From the NCBI RefSeq assembly GCF_056746865.1, contig NZ_CM163382.1: a stretch of 64,000 bases of DNA. The stretch is one strand, 5' to 3'. Positions 15,001-21,000 of the stretch are shown here, piece by piece. A program made the position numbers. Position 1 is the first letter of the stretch. Each line of letters starts with the position of its first letter.

Positions 15001-18000
15001 AGAGTTTCGCGAGCGTATTGTCGAACTGGGTGCGCCGGAGGTGAGTAGTCTTTGGCACCAGCAACAAAAAAATCCGCCTTTCGTCCTCAAACATAATTTG
15101 TATGAGTATTAACCCGCGATTCTGATGACGCTTTTGCTACAATAAAAGCGTTGTTTCACCCTCGGTTATTTTTTCATGTACAAACAAGCTGTTATTCTCC
15201 TGCTGATGCTGTTTACCGCAAGTGTCAGTGCCGCGTTACCTGCCCGTTATATGCAAACCATCGAAAATGCTGCGGTCTGGGCGCAAATTGGCGACAAGAT
15301 GGTGACGGTGGGGAATATTCGGGCCGGACAAATCATTGCCGTGGAGCCCACTGCCGCAAGTTATTACGCATTTAATTTTGGCTTTGGTAAAGGGTTTATC
15401 GATAAAGGTCATCTCGAGCCGGTTCAGGGGCGACAAAAAGTTGAAGATGGTTTGGGTGACCTCAACAAGCCGCTGAGTAATCAGAACTTAATAACCTGGA
15501 AAGATACGCCGGTCTTCAACGCGCCGAGTGCGGGCAGTGCGCCGTTTGGGGTACTGGCGGACAATTTGCGCTACCCAATTTTGCATAAACTGAAAGACAG
15601 GTTAAATCAAACCTGGTATCAGATCCGTATTGGCGATCGACTGGCCTATATCAGCGCGCTGGATGCCCAACCCGATAATGGCCTGCCGGTGCTAACCTAT
15701 CACCATATTCTGCGCGACGAAGAAAATACCCGTTTTCGCCATACTTCGACGACCACCTCGGTACGCGCTTTCAATAACCAGATGGCCTGGCTGCGCGACA
15801 GGGGATACGTGACACTGAGCATGGCGCAACTGGAAGGTTACGTGAAGAATAAGATCAATCTCCCTGCGCGAGCGGTGGTGATTACCTTTGATGATGGCCT
15901 AAAGTCGGTGAGCCGCTATGCGTATCCTGTGTTGAAACAATATGGCATGAAGGCGACGGCGTTTATTGTTACCTCGCGCATCAAACGTCACCCGCAGAAG
16001 TGGGACCCAAAATCGCTGCAATTTATGAGCGTTTCTGAACTTAACGAAATTCGCGATGTATTTGATTTCCAGTCACATACCCATTTTTTGCATCGGGTGG
16101 ATGGTTATCGCCGACCCATATTACTGAGCCGTAGTGAGCACAATATCCTGTTTGATTTTGCACGTTCACGCCGCGCTCTGGCGCAATTTAATCCGCATGT
16201 CTGGTATCTTTCGTATCCGTTTGGCGGATTTAATGACAAAGCCGTGAAGGCAGCAAAAGAAGCCGGATTTCACCTGGCGGTGACAACCATGAAAGGCAAA
16301 GTAAAACCGGGGGATAATCCGTTGTTACTAAAACGACTTTATATCTTAAGAACGGATTCGCTGGAGACAATGTCGCGGCTGGTGAGTAACCAGCCGCAGG
16401 GGTGATTATCAGGCAACCTGTACCGGAATGGCTTTCGCGGTACGTTTCATTTCGTTGTCGCCTTCAAAATAGGCGACGTTGGGCCGCCAGGTGCGAGCTT
16501 CTTCATCTGGCATGGTAACGAAGCTGGCGATGATGACAATATCGCCGACGCTGGCGCAGTGGGCCGCCGCACCGTTAACGGAAATAATTCTCGAACCGCG
16601 TTCTGCCGCGATGGCATAAGTGGAGAAACGCTTGCCGTTGGTGACATTCCAGATATCAATGGCTTCGTTTTCGAGAATACCGGCTGCGTCAAGAAAATCC
16701 TGGTCAATGGCGCAAGAACCTTCATAGTGCAGGTCCGCATGAGTCACTTTCACGCGGTGGAGTTTGCCCTGCAGCATCGTGCGAATCATAACTTCTACCT
16801 TTCTACCCTGTCGTTAACGAAGCAGGCGATGCCTGCTTTGAGGAAATTCTCACGCAGTATTGCCCGATTTTTGTTTAGTGTCTACTCATCTGACGGCATT
16901 TGCATCAGCAGTTTGCGTACCGTGCCGAAGCGTGCCATGTAACGCCTGTAACCAATTGAAATTTCTCTGAACGCTGCTCGGTAAACAATAAAGAGGCGGC
17001 TGACGACGGCGCGCCTTGACTGGATACTGCCTTCACGCAAGACAACACGGAAGGCAGGGAAGATGGATGCACCGAGTACCACACCGCATGACGCGGTATT
17101 TAAACAATTTTTAATGCATGCGGAAACGGCTCGTGACTTTCTGGATATCCATTTGCCAGCGGAACTACGCGAACTGTGTGACCTCGACACGCTGCATCTT
17201 GAGTCGGGGAGTTTTATTGAAGAAAGCCTGAAAGGGCACAGCACTGACGTGCTCTATTCCGTGCAAATGCAGGGTAATCCCGGTTATTTGCATGTGGTGA
17301 TTGAACATCAAAGCAAGCCGGATAAGAAAATGGCCTTTCGCATGATGCGTTATTCTATTGCTGCCATGCACCGGCATCTGGAGGCGGATCACGATAAGCT
17401 GCCGCTGGTGGTGCCGATTCTGTTTTATCAGGGCGAGGCCACACCTTATCCGCTCTCAATGTGCTGGTTTGATATGTTTTACTCGCCGGAGCTGGCGCGA
17501 CGCGTTTACAACAACCCTTTCCCGCTGGTGGATATCACCATCACACCGGATGACGAAATCATGCAGCATCGGCGGATTGCGATTCTCGAACTACTGCAAA
17601 AACATATTCGCCAGCGCGACTTAATGTTATTGCTGGAGCAACTGGTCACGCTGATTGACGAAGGGTACACTAGCGGAAGTCAGTTAGTTGCCATGCAAAA
17701 CTATATGCTGCAACGCGGTCATACTGAACAAGCGGATTTGTTTTATGGTGTGCTGAGAGACAGGGAAACGGGAGGGGAGTCTATGATGACGCTGGCGCAG
17801 TGGTTTGAAGAGAGGGGAAGACAGGAAGGAAGACAGGAGGTAAGACAAGAGGTAAGACAAGAGGTAAGACAAGAGGTAATACAGGAAGTAACACAGGAAG
17901 TAAGTCAGGAATTCGCCCAGCGTCTTCTGAGTAAAGGAATGTCTCGGGAAGACGTTGCAGAGATGGCAAATTTACCCCTTGCCGAGATTGATAAGCTGAT

Positions 18001-21000
18001 TAACTAAGTTGTCTGCATCATCAGTTATAGCCAGATAATTGTTATTGTTAACTGACCAGATAATTAAGGGAACCTATGGAAATAAAGACACGGAGAGAAA
18101 CCAGGCAGACGTTGGCGCAGTGGTTTGAAGAGAAGGGATTTCAGAAGGGATTTCAGAAGGGATATAAAGAGGGACTCCGGAAGGTAAGGCTGGCACAGCG
18201 TCTTCTGAGTAAAGGAATGTCTCGGGAAGACGTTGCAGAGATGGCAACTTTATCTCTTACAGAGGTTGATAAGCTAATTAACTCTAACTAAGTTGTCTGC
18301 GTTATGAATTATCGCTTACAGATAACATGGCAATGAATAACTGGCGCCATCAGCCGTAGCGCCAGTTAAGTATTACACCAGCTCGACTATTTTGTTGTCG
18401 ATCAGGCGGGCATCGCCAAGCCAGGCGGCTACCAGAATCACTGCACGTTTGCTGTTTTCAGAGACCTCCAGCAAGGTGTCGGCATCACGAATCTGAATAT
18501 CATCGGCGCGGAAGCCTTTTTCATTCAGTTCTTGCCCGGCAATAGTAATAATTTCATCGAGATCCCGTTCGCCAGCCTGCAATTTGTCGGCAATCGAACT
18601 TAAAACCTTGTACAGACCAGGCGCAATTTTGCGTTGTTCCGCCGTCAGATAACCGTTACGGGAACTCAGCGCCAGACCGTCTTTGGCGCGCATAATTGGC
18701 ACACCGACAATCTCAATATCAAAGCCCATATCAGCAACCATTTTGCGGATCAGCGCCAGTTGCTGAAAATCTTTTTCACCGAAGCAGGCGATGTCCGGCT
18801 GGACCAGATTGAACAGCTTGCTGACGATAGTCGAAACGCCGCGAAAATGTCCCGGACGGCTGGCACCTTCCAGCATGGTAGAAAGACCGGGAACATCAAC
18901 ATAGGTGTGGGTTTCTGTACCGTTCGGGTAGATCTCTTTTACCGAAGGGGCGAAAACTAAATCCACTTTGCGCTTGTTCAGCTTTTCGCAGTCCTCTTGC
19001 AAGGTCCGTGGATAACGTGCCAGATCTTCCGGGCGGTCGAACTGCATCGGGTTAACGAAAATACTGACGACGACCACATCGGCGCGGGCTTTGGCTTCGT
19101 CGACCAGCTTCATATGGCCGTCGTGCAGGTTACCCATGGTGGGCACCAGCGCCACGCGCTTACCTTCCATACGCAGGCGGCGGATTTGCTGACGCAGCAG
19201 CGGCAGGGTTTCGATAATTAACACAACGTCACTCCTTAATGGAAACTGTGTTCTTCGCCCGGATAAACGCCGGACTCCACTTCAGCCATATACTGCCGCA
19301 CAGCCGCGCGGATGTCGCCCGTTTCGGCGAGGAAATTTTTGGCGAATTTAGGAATATGACCGCCGGTAATGCCGAATGCGTCGTGCATCACGAGAATTTG
19401 CCCGTCAGTGACGTTGCCTGCGCCAATGCCAATAACCGGGATCGCCAGTGCTTCGGTAATACGTTTTGCCAGTTCAACCGGCACGCACTCCAGTACCAGC
19501 AGTTGTGCCCCAGCAGCTTCTAAAGCTAATGCATCGCTGAGCAGTCGATCGGCCGCTTCATCGCCGCGCCCCTGGACTTTGTAGCCACCGAAAATATTCA
19601 CTGACTGTGGGGTTAAACCTAAGTGACCACAAACAGGAACGGCACGTTCGGTCAGCATTTGTACGGTTTCTACCAGCCACTCACCGCCCTCAATTTTGAC
19701 CATGTTGGCACCGGCACGCATGACAGTCGCGGCGTTTTCAAAGGCTTGTTCTGGTGTGGCATACGCCATAAACGGCAGATCAGCCAGCAGCAGACAGTTT
19801 GGCGCACCGCGACGTACAGCAGCAGTGTGGTAGGCGATATCGGCAACGGTAACTGGCAGAGTTGAGTCATGCCCCTGAACCGTCATGCCCAGTGAATCGC
19901 CAACCAGCATGACGTTAAGCCCTTCATCGGCAAACAGTTTTGCGAAGCTATAGTCGTAAGCGGTGATGGTCGCGAAACGTTTTTTTTCTTGTTTGCATTT
20001 TTGCAATGAAGCAATAGTGGTTGGTTTCATAACGTATCCTGATAAGTAATGTCGTGCTGTCTGGCATTTTATCAGTCACATTGGTGGGGGCAATGATTTA
20101 TCAATTACAGCACCGCCAGATGATGGCGGTGCGGTTAAACCTGTTACTCGTAGGTGACCTGGAATGTACTGGTAGCCTTAAATCCGCCGGGTTTCACAGT
20201 TGCATTACCATCGCGTTTTAATGTTGCCTGAAATTTCAGGTCCTGGGTTGTAGTACGACCGTTGGCATTAGGATAATCTGGGTTATAAATTCCATTGTTT
20301 TCTCCAGGATCATCTTCAGCATCGTTATAGCTTGATGTCTCATCATTTGGCTTAAGCGTGAAATTTTGTGAATTTTTGCTGTTGGGTAACCCTTCAATAA
20401 GTACTCCGGCACCTTTTGCATCATCGGTTCCTGTCAAAGTATTACCAAGCAACAGAGGATTATTCACTCCTACTACATTAGATTTTAGTTTTGTTTTAAT
20501 ACTGCTTATACGAACACAATTTTGTAGCGAGATCTGAAAATTAACAGGTGTTGCAGAATCTGAGGTGATCTGTCCAACAGTATATTCCCCGAGATTTACG
20601 GTTGATCGCGTTACGCTCTCACCCAAAAGGATAGACGTAAAGCATGTTGGCAGTTGGATATTGATGTCTGTTAAATTAAAATTGATTTTTAGCATCTTAG
20701 ATGCACTTACATTTGGAACCCCTGGCCCTTCATTTGCGAATGAATACAAATAATCACCAGTATGTTTTAATTGCACGTTAGTATTTGGAGCAGGGTTAAA
20801 ACTGCTGTCGGTATAGAATTTGGATTTGCCCCTATATTTCCAGACACCTGTTATCACTTAACCCATTACTGGCCCGCTGCCGTAGATATTCCCGTGGCGA
20901 GCGATAACCCAGTGCACTATGCGGATGCCATTCGTTATAATGCTCGAACGCCTCTGCAAGGTTCTTTGCTGCCGTTAACCCGTCTGGTTTAGGCATGATA

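What the first reader, a model, noticed from the sequence alone, without database searches (positions are those of the whole stretch)
17771..18007. Strong internal Shine-Dalgarno plus in-frame ATG-ATG inside rpnC: candidate intragenic small protein
Within the rpnC coding frame, GGAGGGGAG (17771-17779) sits 7 nt upstream of an in-frame ATG ATG (17783-17788). An SD this strong is unexpected inside a gene unless translation starts there. Initiation would yield a 74-aa protein identical to the RpnC C-terminal tail. Rpn (YhgA-like) nucleases have been reported to encode in-frame small proteins from their 3' ends that restrain the full-length toxic nuclease; the sequence here fits that arrangement.
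Basis: partly seen in the sequence, partly recalled or inferred. Interest (0 to 1): 0.55.

Follow-up and report, generated by a model that had tools for sequence, protein, structure and literature searches.

The report
Known RpnC internal antitoxin start site
The strong ribosome-binding site and double ATG inside the E. coli rpnC nuclease gene are real, but they are the already published start of RpnC-S, a small antitoxin protein made from the 3' end of the gene, so this is a correct re-discovery and not a new finding.

Summary
GGAGGGGAG lies at 17771-17779 and an in-frame ATG-ATG at 17783-17788, inside the 314-codon rpnC ORF (17063-18007, + strand). Initiation at 17783 gives a 74-aa product. 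The window is 100% identical to E. coli 118UI at the yadE-panD-rpnC-panC locus. The sequence around the site is base-for-base identical to K-12 rpnC. The published RpnC-S expression construct (Zhong et al. 2023, PNAS) begins with the same ATGATGACGCTGGCGCAG. That paper and Meydan et al. 2019 report start-site ribosome profiling peaks in all five rpn genes. Zhong et al. also report tagged RpnC-S protein, an internal transcription start, and repeat-number-specific neutralisation of full-length RpnC by RpnC-S.

My own checks agree:
- The SD is among the 5 strongest of 2027 ATG contexts in the window.
- The same position is the best internal SD+ATG in rpnA and rpnE.
- The 60-nt stretch around the site is present in 5115 of 5426 complete E. 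coli genomes.
- The tail downstream varies from 3 to 9 four-residue repeat units; this allele has 8.
- A second free-standing tail copy (rpnCSs, 18076-18291), also published, follows the gene.

Verdict: real, correctly interpreted, already known. Still open are which ATG is used and what the downstream copy does.

The parts
17063..18007 (+). rpnC (yadD) full-length ORF, 314 aa: RpnC-L, a PD-(D/E)XK YhgA-like nuclease (the toxin) with a variable C-terminal tail
   Evidence: ORF. Annotated rpnC in the 100%-identical record NZ_CP032515.1. Pfam PF04754 over residues 7-207, E=3e-87. NCBIfam TIGR01784 scores 280.5 bits against a cut-off of 52.1. 96% identical to K-12 RpnC.
17771..17779 (+). Internal Shine-Dalgarno sequence GGAGGGGAG, which also encodes Gly-Gly-Glu of RpnC-L
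   Evidence: -10.8 kcal/mol, top 5 of 2027 ATG contexts. Identical in K-12. Across the 12 comparison loci the only change is one G>A, seen in 3 loci.
17783..17788 (+). In-frame tandem start codons ATG ATG (M241, M242): the internal translation initiation site of RpnC-S
   Evidence: The published RpnC-S construct starts ATGATGACGCTGGCGCAG. M242 aligns with the experimentally verified RpnA M244 start. This is the best internal SD+ATG in rpnC, and the homologous position is the best in rpnA and rpnE.
17783..18007 (+). Nested rpnCS ORF: 74 aa from the first ATG (73 from the second), the intragenic antitoxin and oligomerisation domain
   Evidence: Translation. The AlphaFold2 model has three helices (4-50, 55-61, 66-73), mean pLDDT 74. 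It superposes on the RpnA-S crystal structure 7TH0 with target-normalised TM 0.82 and rmsd 0.9 A over 41 columns, but Foldseek E=1.8. Function is taken from Zhong et al. 2023.
17813..17908 (+). Eight tandem 12-nt (four-residue) repeat units, RGRQ EGRQ EVRQ EVRQ EVRQ EVIQ EVTQ EVSQ, in helix 1 of the tail; the hypervariable specificity region
   Evidence: TRF finds period 12 and 7.8 copies at 17818-17911. The codon-register breakdown and the comparison with 10 other alleles (3 to 9 units) are. The first unit begins at residue 11 of RpnC-S, inside the published range of 8-20.
17643..17671 (+). Candidate internal sigma-70 promoter (TGGTCA, 17 nt, TACACT) about 110 nt upstream of the internal start; unverified
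   Evidence: Best-scoring site in 17300-17785 in my own weight-matrix scan, in the top 0.1% of scores in the window. The stricter consensus scan found nothing on the + strand. Zhong et al. cite dRNA-seq for a TSS inside every rpn gene, but I had no coordinates.
18076..18291 (+). rpnCSs: free-standing 71-aa second copy of the RpnC tail, with its own KGFQ-type 12-nt repeats (18131-18163)
   Evidence: ORF. 91-nt repeat at 91% identity with 17915-18005. TRF. Annotated 'hypothetical protein' or 'RpnC/YadD family protein'. The segment 18008-18372 is present at >=80% coverage in 1552 of 5426 genomes. Described by Zhong et al..
18001..18031 (+). Direct repeat at the end of the rpnC tail (TAACTAAGTTGTCTGC...), repeated at 18285-18315 after rpnCSs; marks the ends of the duplicated tail segment
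   Evidence: Repeat family D3, 84% identity, spacing 284 nt.

Best explanation
The site is the internal translation initiation site of rpnC. Ribosomes bind the GGAGGGGAG Shine-Dalgarno sequence and start at the in-frame ATG-ATG, most likely on a shorter transcript from a promoter inside the gene. They make RpnC-S, a 74-aa (or 73-aa) helical protein identical to the C-terminal tail of the full-length nuclease RpnC-L. RpnC-S binds the tail domain of RpnC-L through the long first helix, which carries the four-residue repeats, and so keeps the toxic PD-(D/E)XK DNA endonuclease inactive. This is a gene-within-a-gene toxin-antitoxin pair. Because toxin tail and antitoxin come from the same DNA, their repeat number always matches; in this allele it is 8 units.

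Shown here: the sequence features, their statistical rarity, identity to the K-12 site, conservation across E. coli and paralogs, family membership, and the predicted fold. Taken from published experiments on K-12: translation from the site, the internal TSS, and antitoxin activity with repeat-number specificity. Inferred: that the same holds for this strain's 8-repeat allele, and that the pair acts in phage defence. Phage defence was demonstrated only for the plasmid-borne RpnP2.
For: - Sequence, frame and product.
- SD strength is in the top 5 of 2027 ATG contexts. The other three comprise two real gene starts and one ATG with a 3-codon ORF.
- The window is 100% identical to E. coli 118UI at the rpnC locus.
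- The K-12 context gggaggggagtctATGATGacgctggcgcag is identical.
- Published primer 2C_fwd and gBlock KK7 start RpnC-S at ATGATGACGCTGGCGCAG.
- Published ribosome profiling (Onc112, retapamulin) for rpnC, SPA-tagged RpnC-S immunoblot, and an internal TSS in every rpn gene.
- RpnC-S blocks RpnC-LS-dependent SOS induction only when repeat numbers match.
- RpnA-S blocks RpnA-L nuclease activity in vitro.
- The homologous M244 is the best internal SD+ATG in rpnA and rpnE. RpnC M242 aligns with it.
- The 60-nt stretch around the site is present in 5115 of 5426 genomes, at >=99% identity in 4240.
- SD and ATGATG are essentially invariant in the 12 comparison loci, while their tails range from 54 to 78 aa.
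- PF04754 and TIGR01784 membership.
- Three-helix model that superposes on RpnA-S (7TH0).
Against: - No expression data exist for this strain or this 8-repeat allele.
- For rpnC itself, the paper text I read reports profiling and a tagged small product, but no iTIS or RBS knock-out. That was done for rpnA and for a C. difficile rpn gene.
- I could not see the figures, so the exact codon under the profiling peak is not verified. It is known only from the construct design.
- The stricter consensus scan finds no promoter on the + strand inside the gene. The candidate is unverified.
- The fold match has a non-significant Foldseek E-value (1.8), and many HTH proteins score similarly.
- The RpnA-S sequence was in the alignment used for the structure prediction.
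- RpnC-S does not hit 7TH0 by sequence alone.
- No chromosomal E. coli Rpn has been shown to defend against phage.
Confidence: 0.93

Rival explanations
1. Translation starts only or mainly at the second ATG (17786), giving a 73-aa MTLAQW... product. The first ATG would be just an internal Met codon of RpnC-L. The function would be the same; only the boundary differs.
For: M242, not M241, aligns with the invariant Met of RpnA and RpnE (M244), which was verified as the RpnA-S start. BLASTP aligns RpnA-S residue 1 with RpnC-S residue 2. The second GGAG (17776-17779) lies 6 nt from ATG 17786, the same spacing as GGAG-6 nt-ATG in rpnA and rpnE.
Against: The published RpnC-S construct starts at the first ATG. 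The GGAGG core is 7 nt from ATG 17783, which is also a good spacing. Both ATGs get the same computed SD energy. Both may be used.
Confidence: 0.3
2. The SD-like motif is a by-product of coding for Thr-Gly-Gly-Glu-Ser, and no protein is started there. The Met-Met is just part of the linker between the nuclease domain and the tail.
For: SD-like hexamers do occur inside genes by chance. The repeat region downstream also contains GAGG motifs without start codons.
Against: The identical K-12 sequence shows initiation-complex profiling peaks and a tagged small protein. Three paralogs share an SD+ATG at the same position although the sequences differ. The site is rare within the window. The motif is invariant while the neighbouring tail is hypervariable.
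Confidence: 0.02
3. The small tail protein seen in K-12 arises by proteolytic cleavage of full-length RpnC in the linker, not by internal initiation.
For: In the text I read, no rpnC-specific iTIS mutant is described. The site lies at a domain boundary, where the Pfam domain ends at residue 207 and helix 1 of the tail starts near residue 244.
Against: Initiation-specific ribosome profiling marks the site. RBS and iTIS mutations abolish the small product in rpnA and in the C. difficile rpn gene. RpnS levels exceed RpnL levels, consistent with a short internal transcript.
Confidence: 0.03

Closest known systems
E. coli K-12 RpnC-L / RpnC-S (rpnC = yadD, b0132), Zhong et al. 2023 PNAS (PMC10400941)
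   Same: Same gene at the same chromosomal locus (yadE-panD-rpnC-panC). RpnC-L is 96% identical. The SD, the ATGATG and the flanking bases are identical. The tail has the same architecture: a WFEE anchor, then four-residue repeats, then QRLLSKGMSREDVAEMANLPLAEIDK.
   Different: This allele has 8 repeat units, mostly of EVRQ type, against 4 in K-12 (KGIE KGIQ QGRQ EVSQ). It ends ...KLIN instead of ...KVINLI. It is followed by the extra rpnCSs gene, which K-12 lacks. The SD of its annotated rpnC start is predicted to be stronger (-8.4 against -3.5 kcal/mol).
E. coli RpnA-L / RpnA-S (crystal structure 7TH0)
   Same: Same family (50% identity over the whole protein). The internal SD+ATG is at the homologous position (M244). 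The predicted RpnC-S fold superposes on 7TH0 (TM 0.82 normalised to the target).
   Different: The tail sequences are barely alignable (10 of 17 identities over 17 alignment columns). K-12 RpnA-S is 49 aa and has no expanded repeat array. RpnA has a single start ATG.
rpnE plus ypaA (rpnESs), and rpnCSs in some E. coli strains
   Same: A free-standing copy of the tail is encoded immediately downstream of the rpn gene. The window has exactly this arrangement at 18076-18291.
   Different: According to Zhong et al., the rpnC-linked and rpnE-linked downstream copies arose independently. Here the downstream copy differs from the nested one in repeat type and number.
Other genes-within-genes with in-frame internal starts (ArcB-C; Cas10d/Cas11d)
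   Same: An in-frame 3'-proximal internal start yields a C-terminal fragment as a separate protein.
   Different: In those cases the two products cooperate or act independently. In Rpn the short product antagonises the long one, as an antitoxin against a toxin.

Membership tests
Rpn (YhgA-like) recombination-promoting nuclease family | N-terminal YhgA-like PD-(D/E)XK domain (Pfam PF04754, NCBIfam TIGR01784) | tested here: met
   PF04754 over residues 7-207, E=3.3e-87. TIGR01784 scores 280.5 bits against a cut-off of 52.1.
Rpn (YhgA-like) recombination-promoting nuclease family | Conserved acidic, Gln and Lys residues of the PD-(D/E)XK core (D...E-H-Q-S...K) | tested here: met
   D62, E81, H82, Q83, S84 and K88 are invariant between this RpnC and K-12 RpnA and RpnE. 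Which of these residues are catalytic rests on the literature (Kingston et al. 2017), which I did not read here.
RpnL/RpnS intragenic toxin-antitoxin (Zhong et al. 2023) | In-frame internal start codon with an SD, at the boundary between nuclease domain and tail, homologous to the verified RpnA M244 start | tested here: met
   SD of -10.8 kcal/mol plus ATG at M241/M242. M242 aligns with RpnA and RpnE M244.
RpnL/RpnS intragenic toxin-antitoxin (Zhong et al. 2023) | Same site as the experimentally supported K-12 RpnC-S start | tested here: met
   The 30-nt context is identical to K-12. The published construct starts ATGATGACGCTGGCGCAG.
RpnL/RpnS intragenic toxin-antitoxin (Zhong et al. 2023) | Tail with four-residue (12-nt) repeats that vary in number between strains and begin 8-20 residues after the initiating Met | tested here: met
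   8 units starting at residue 11 of RpnC-S. The eleven nested rpnC tails compared (window plus 10 other alleles) have 3 to 9 units.
RpnL/RpnS intragenic toxin-antitoxin (Zhong et al. 2023) | RpnS folds as a three-helix bundle with a long first helix, as in RpnA-S (7TH0) | tested here: met
   The AF2 model has helices 4-50, 55-61 and 66-73, mean pLDDT 74. Against 7TH0: TM 0.82 normalised to the target, rmsd 0.9 A over 41 columns. Caveats: Foldseek E=1.8, generic HTH proteins score alike, and RpnA-S was in the input alignment.
RpnL/RpnS intragenic toxin-antitoxin (Zhong et al. 2023) | Internal promoter or transcription start giving a short transcript for RpnS | tested here: inconclusive
   The consensus scan found no + strand site. 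A relaxed matrix scan gives one candidate at 17643-17671.
RpnL/RpnS intragenic toxin-antitoxin (Zhong et al. 2023) | The small protein is actually translated from the internal site in this strain | not testable with these tools
   This needs ribosome profiling or tagging. It has been shown only for K-12, which has the identical site.
RpnL/RpnS intragenic toxin-antitoxin (Zhong et al. 2023) | RpnS neutralises the cognate RpnL (growth, SOS induction, nuclease activity) | not testable with these tools
   Shown for the K-12 RpnC allele by the dinD-lacZ assay. Not tested for the 8-repeat allele.

The most novel reading that the evidence does not exclude
The only part that published work may not fully cover is the downstream copy in this strain. 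The free-standing rpnCSs (KGFQ-type repeats, 5 units) does not match the nested RpnC-S/RpnC-L tail (EVRQ-type, 8 units). By the published repeat-number rule it should therefore not neutralise this strain's RpnC-L. In another strain (GPEC856, L006) the repeat types sit the other way round: KGIE-type in the nested copy and EVRQ-type in the downstream copy. In a third strain (GPT24-01, L013) the downstream-type tail is fused onto the nuclease domain. Together these suggest that rpnCSs could act as a silent donor cassette. Recombination with the nested tail would switch the specificity of toxin and antitoxin together, a tail-switching system analogous to cassette-based antigenic variation. The alternative is that it is simply a spare antitoxin.
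Probability: 0.12. Interest if true: 0.45.

Novelty: already known. Interest (0 to 1): 0.1.

Why it matters
The biology is important, because Rpn genes are a model for genes-within-genes in which a toxin carries its own antitoxin. But it was established in 2019-2023 for this very gene and this very start site. The value of the finding here is as a positive control: a reader working from raw sequence alone correctly picked out a real internal start. It also shows that current RefSeq records (118UI and MG1655) still do not annotate RpnC-S as a separate product. The 8-repeat allele and the mismatched downstream copy are natural variants. They could be used to test the published repeat-number specificity rule.

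Tried and rejected
- Pfam scans of full-length RpnC (which includes the nested tail) and of rpnCSs gave no DUF4351/PF14261 match at E<=10. This is the family that Zhong et al. say covers free-standing RpnS proteins in some species. Only TIGR01784 covers the tail, and below its cut-off (43.7 and 40.5 bits).
- PADLOC has no Rpn model, so there was no meaningful hit.
- phmmer of RpnC-S against PDB sequences did not find RpnA-S (7TH0). The hits were designed helical repeat proteins, so I searched with RpnA-S itself and then with a predicted fold.
- The built-in promoter and terminator scan found no + strand promoter inside rpnC. Its only terminator-like hairpin lies inside rpnCSs, at the level expected by chance.
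- The PNAS version of the paper has no supplements held, so I used the preprint supplements.
- I rejected the antisense ORFs across the repeats (17684-17872, 17781-17969 and 18074-18247, all minus strand) as artefacts of the purine-rich repeats. Nothing supports them.
- I did not run the costly cross-species genome or metagenome scans. The E. coli population survey, the paralog comparison and the published conservation analysis already settle the question.

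
Full report
**1. Observation**

The window sequence shows gggaggggag tct atg atg at 17770-17788. GGAGGGGAG occupies 17771-17779 and ATGATG occupies 17783-17788. Both ATGs are in frame with the ORF 17063..18007 on the + strand (314 aa), as codons 241 and 242. Translation from 17783 gives 74 residues, ending at the stop codon 18005-18007.

A second GGAG (17776-17779) lies 3 nt from the first ATG and 6 nt from the second.

I scored every ATG on both strands of the window for pairing of its upstream 15 nt with the anti-SD. 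Only 5 of 2027 reach the -10.8 kcal/mol of this site. Those five are the annotated starts of speE and yadI, one ATG followed by a 3-codon ORF, and the two rpnC ATGs. The internal SD is stronger than that of the annotated rpnC start (-8.4).

**2. Where the window comes from**

The region 16800-18400 is 100% identical to the chromosome of E. coli 118UI (NZ_CP032515.1). It matches 5424 of 5426 complete E. coli genomes. The gene order is yadE, panD (minus strand), rpnC, a 71-aa ORF, panC (minus) and panB (minus).

The ORF is annotated rpnC. It matches Pfam PF04754 (YhgA-like) over residues 7-207 at E=3e-87. It scores 280.5 bits on NCBIfam TIGR01784 (Rpn family), against a cut-off of 52.1. It is 96% identical to K-12 RpnC. 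The D62, E81-H-Q-S84 and K88 core residues are invariant with RpnA and RpnE.

**3. What the site is**

In K-12 (W3110 and MG1655) the bases around the site, gacagggaaacgggaggggagtctATGATGacgctggcgcag, are identical to the window.

Zhong et al. 2023 (PNAS, PMC10400941) report four things:
[quoted passage not shown] 2D.
- Chromosomal SPA tagging reveals RpnC-S, and also RpnC-L.
- dRNA-seq shows a transcription start inside every rpn gene, for a short and more abundant transcript.
- RBS and iTIS mutations abolish RpnA-S, and likewise the RpnS of a C. difficile rpn gene.

Their Dataset S2 gives the forward primer for the RpnC-S expression plasmid as ggaattcaccATGATGACGCTGGCGCAG, and a gBlock that begins the same way. 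The published RpnC-S therefore starts at the codon corresponding to window 17783.

Meydan et al. 2019 (bioRxiv 10.1101/520783) had already reported Ribo-RET peaks at in-frame internal sites in rpnA to rpnE. [quoted passage not shown] **4. Independent checks made here**

a) Paralogs. The same SD-energy scan applied to K-12 rpnA and rpnE picks M244 as the best internal SD+ATG in each (aaggagagtttaATG and aaggagagattaATG). RpnA M244 is the experimentally verified start. It aligns with RpnC M242.

b) Population. The 60 nt around the site (17752-17811) occur in 5115 of 5426 complete genomes, at >=99% identity in 4240 and at 95-99% in 873. In the 12 comparison loci I fetched, the ATGATG is invariant. 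The SD shows only one G>A change, in 3 loci.

c) Contrast with the tail. In those same loci the nested tail immediately downstream ranges from 54 to 78 aa. The repeat breakdown of 11 nested tails (window plus 10 of the loci) shows 3 to 9 units of 12 nt, each encoding four residues. This allele has 8 units (17813-17908: RGRQ EGRQ EVRQ EVRQ EVRQ EVIQ EVTQ EVSQ). K-12 has 4. Strain KK19-02 (L003) is the same allele with one more EVRQ unit. The repeats begin at residue 11 of RpnC-S, within the published range of 8-20 residues.

d) Fold. An AlphaFold2 model of RpnC-S (13-sequence alignment, mean pLDDT 74) has one long helix (4-50) and two short ones (55-61, 66-73). Against the PDB it superposes on 7TH0, 'Escherichia coli RpnA-S', with TM 0.82 normalised to the target and rmsd 0.9 A over 41 columns. 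The Foldseek E-value is not significant (1.8), and many helix-turn-helix domains score similarly. That agrees with the authors' remark on HTH relatedness. Sequence alone does not link RpnC-S to 7TH0.

**5. Mechanism**

Shown for K-12 RpnC: RpnC-S supplied in trans blocks RpnC-LS-dependent induction of the SOS reporter dinD-lacZ. Adding one four-residue repeat to only one partner abolishes the block, and adding it to both restores it.

Shown for RpnA: RpnA-S forms a complex with RpnA-L and blocks its dsDNA endonuclease activity in vitro. RpnA-L without RpnA-S inhibits growth.

Shown for the plasmid-borne RpnP2: protection against some phages.

Inferred for this window: the nested ORF 17783-18007 yields the cognate antitoxin of the 314-aa nuclease. 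Because both are read from the same DNA, the repeat numbers of toxin tail and antitoxin are identical by construction.

How the toxin is released, and whether chromosomal RpnC defends against phage, remain open in the literature.

**6. Points of residual uncertainty**

- Which ATG is used. Homology and the GGAG-6 nt-ATG spacing shared with rpnA and rpnE favour 17786. The GGAGG-7 nt-ATG spacing and the published construct favour 17783. Both may be used. The products differ by one Met.
- The internal promoter. The strict consensus scan finds nothing on the + strand. A relaxed matrix scan gives one candidate, TGGTCA-17 nt-TACACT at 17643-17671, in the top 0.1% of scores for the window. It is unverified.
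- In the text I read, no rpnC-specific iTIS knock-out is reported, so proteolysis is not formally excluded for RpnC. It is very unlikely given the initiation-specific profiling.

**7. The surroundings**

Sixty-eight bases after the rpnC stop codon lies a 71-aa ORF (18076-18291). It is a second copy of the tail: TLAQWFEE, then KGFQ KGFQ KGYK EGLR KVRL, then AQRLLSKGMSREDVAEMATLSLTEVDKLINSN. It shares a 91-nt stretch at 91% identity with 17915-18005. The sequence TAACTAAGTTGTCTGC... follows both copies.

RefSeq calls this ORF 'hypothetical protein' or 'RpnC/YadD family protein'. The segment 18008-18372 is present at >=80% coverage in 1552 of 5426 genomes. K-12 lacks it.

This is the published rpnCSs. 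Zhong et al. note it downstream of rpnC in some strains. They state that it derives from rpnC, and that it can be lost by deletion or by fusion with the N-terminal domain. I saw such a fusion allele in GPT24-01 (L013), whose RpnC ends ...MATLSLTEVDKLINSN and which has no downstream copy.

Repeat types differ between the nested and the downstream copies, and they are distributed differently in different strains. In the window the nested copy is EVRQ-type and the downstream copy KGFQ-type. In GPEC856 (L006) the nested copy is KGIE-type and the downstream copy ends with EVRQ x3. This hints at exchange between the two cassettes. It is the only aspect that might go beyond the published description, and I did not test it further.

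**8. Verdict**

The site is the published RpnC-S internal start of the RpnC-L/RpnC-S gene-within-a-gene toxin-antitoxin system. Novelty: already known. Interest is low (0.1), except as a validation that the scan can find true internal starts. A side note: RpnC-S is still not annotated as a separate product in the RefSeq records of this strain or of MG1655.

Noticed in passing
window 18076-18291 (+): A free-standing 71-aa second copy of the RpnC tail (rpnCSs) with its own KGFQ-type 12-nt repeats (18131-18163) and a weak SD (-5.3 kcal/mol). Its repeat type and number do not match the nested RpnC-S of the same strain. The segment is present in 1552 of 5426 complete E. coli genomes. Already described by Zhong et al. 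2023.
   Followed up: partly
window 17813-17908 versus L006 (NZ_CM142801.1) 364-1610: Repeat types appear swapped between the nested and the downstream tail copies in different strains. In the window the nested copy is EVRQ-type and the downstream copy KGFQ-type. In GPEC856 the nested copy is KGIE-type and the downstream copy ends with EVRQ x3. This suggests recombinational exchange between the two cassettes.
   Followed up: partly
L013 (NZ_OZ282436.1) 506-1396: An rpnC allele whose tail is of the downstream (rpnCSs) type (...MATLSLTEVDKLINSN), with no separate downstream copy. It is an apparent deletion or fusion allele, as the literature mentions.
   Followed up: partly
window 17043-17062 (upstream of the annotated rpnC start at 17063): The SD of the full-length rpnC start is predicted to be stronger here (ggaaggcagggaag, -8.4 kcal/mol) than in K-12 (ggaagacagggaag, -3.5 kcal/mol) because of a single G/A difference. 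This could shift the ratio of toxin to antitoxin between strains.
   Followed up: no
window 17783-18007; NC_000913.3 146968-147870: Neither the RefSeq record identical to the window (118UI) nor MG1655 annotates RpnC-S as a separate CDS, although it has been shown experimentally.
   Followed up: yes
window 17684-17872 (-), 17781-17969 (-), 18074-18247 (-): Antisense ORFs of 57-62 aa run across the 12-nt repeat regions. Their low-complexity Leu/Pro-rich translations look like by-products of the purine-rich repeats. Nothing supports them as genes.
   Followed up: no
window 27097-27117 (+), antisense to folK: A strong SD-like sequence (gggaggtg, -11.6 kcal/mol) precedes an ATG that opens only a 3-codon ORF. 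It is probably chance.
   Followed up: no
window 44603-44650 and 46107-46172 (+): Two very small annotated proteins, YadX (15 aa) and YadW (21 aa), flank clcA. They are products of the same start-site profiling studies that revealed the rpn internal starts.
   Followed up: no
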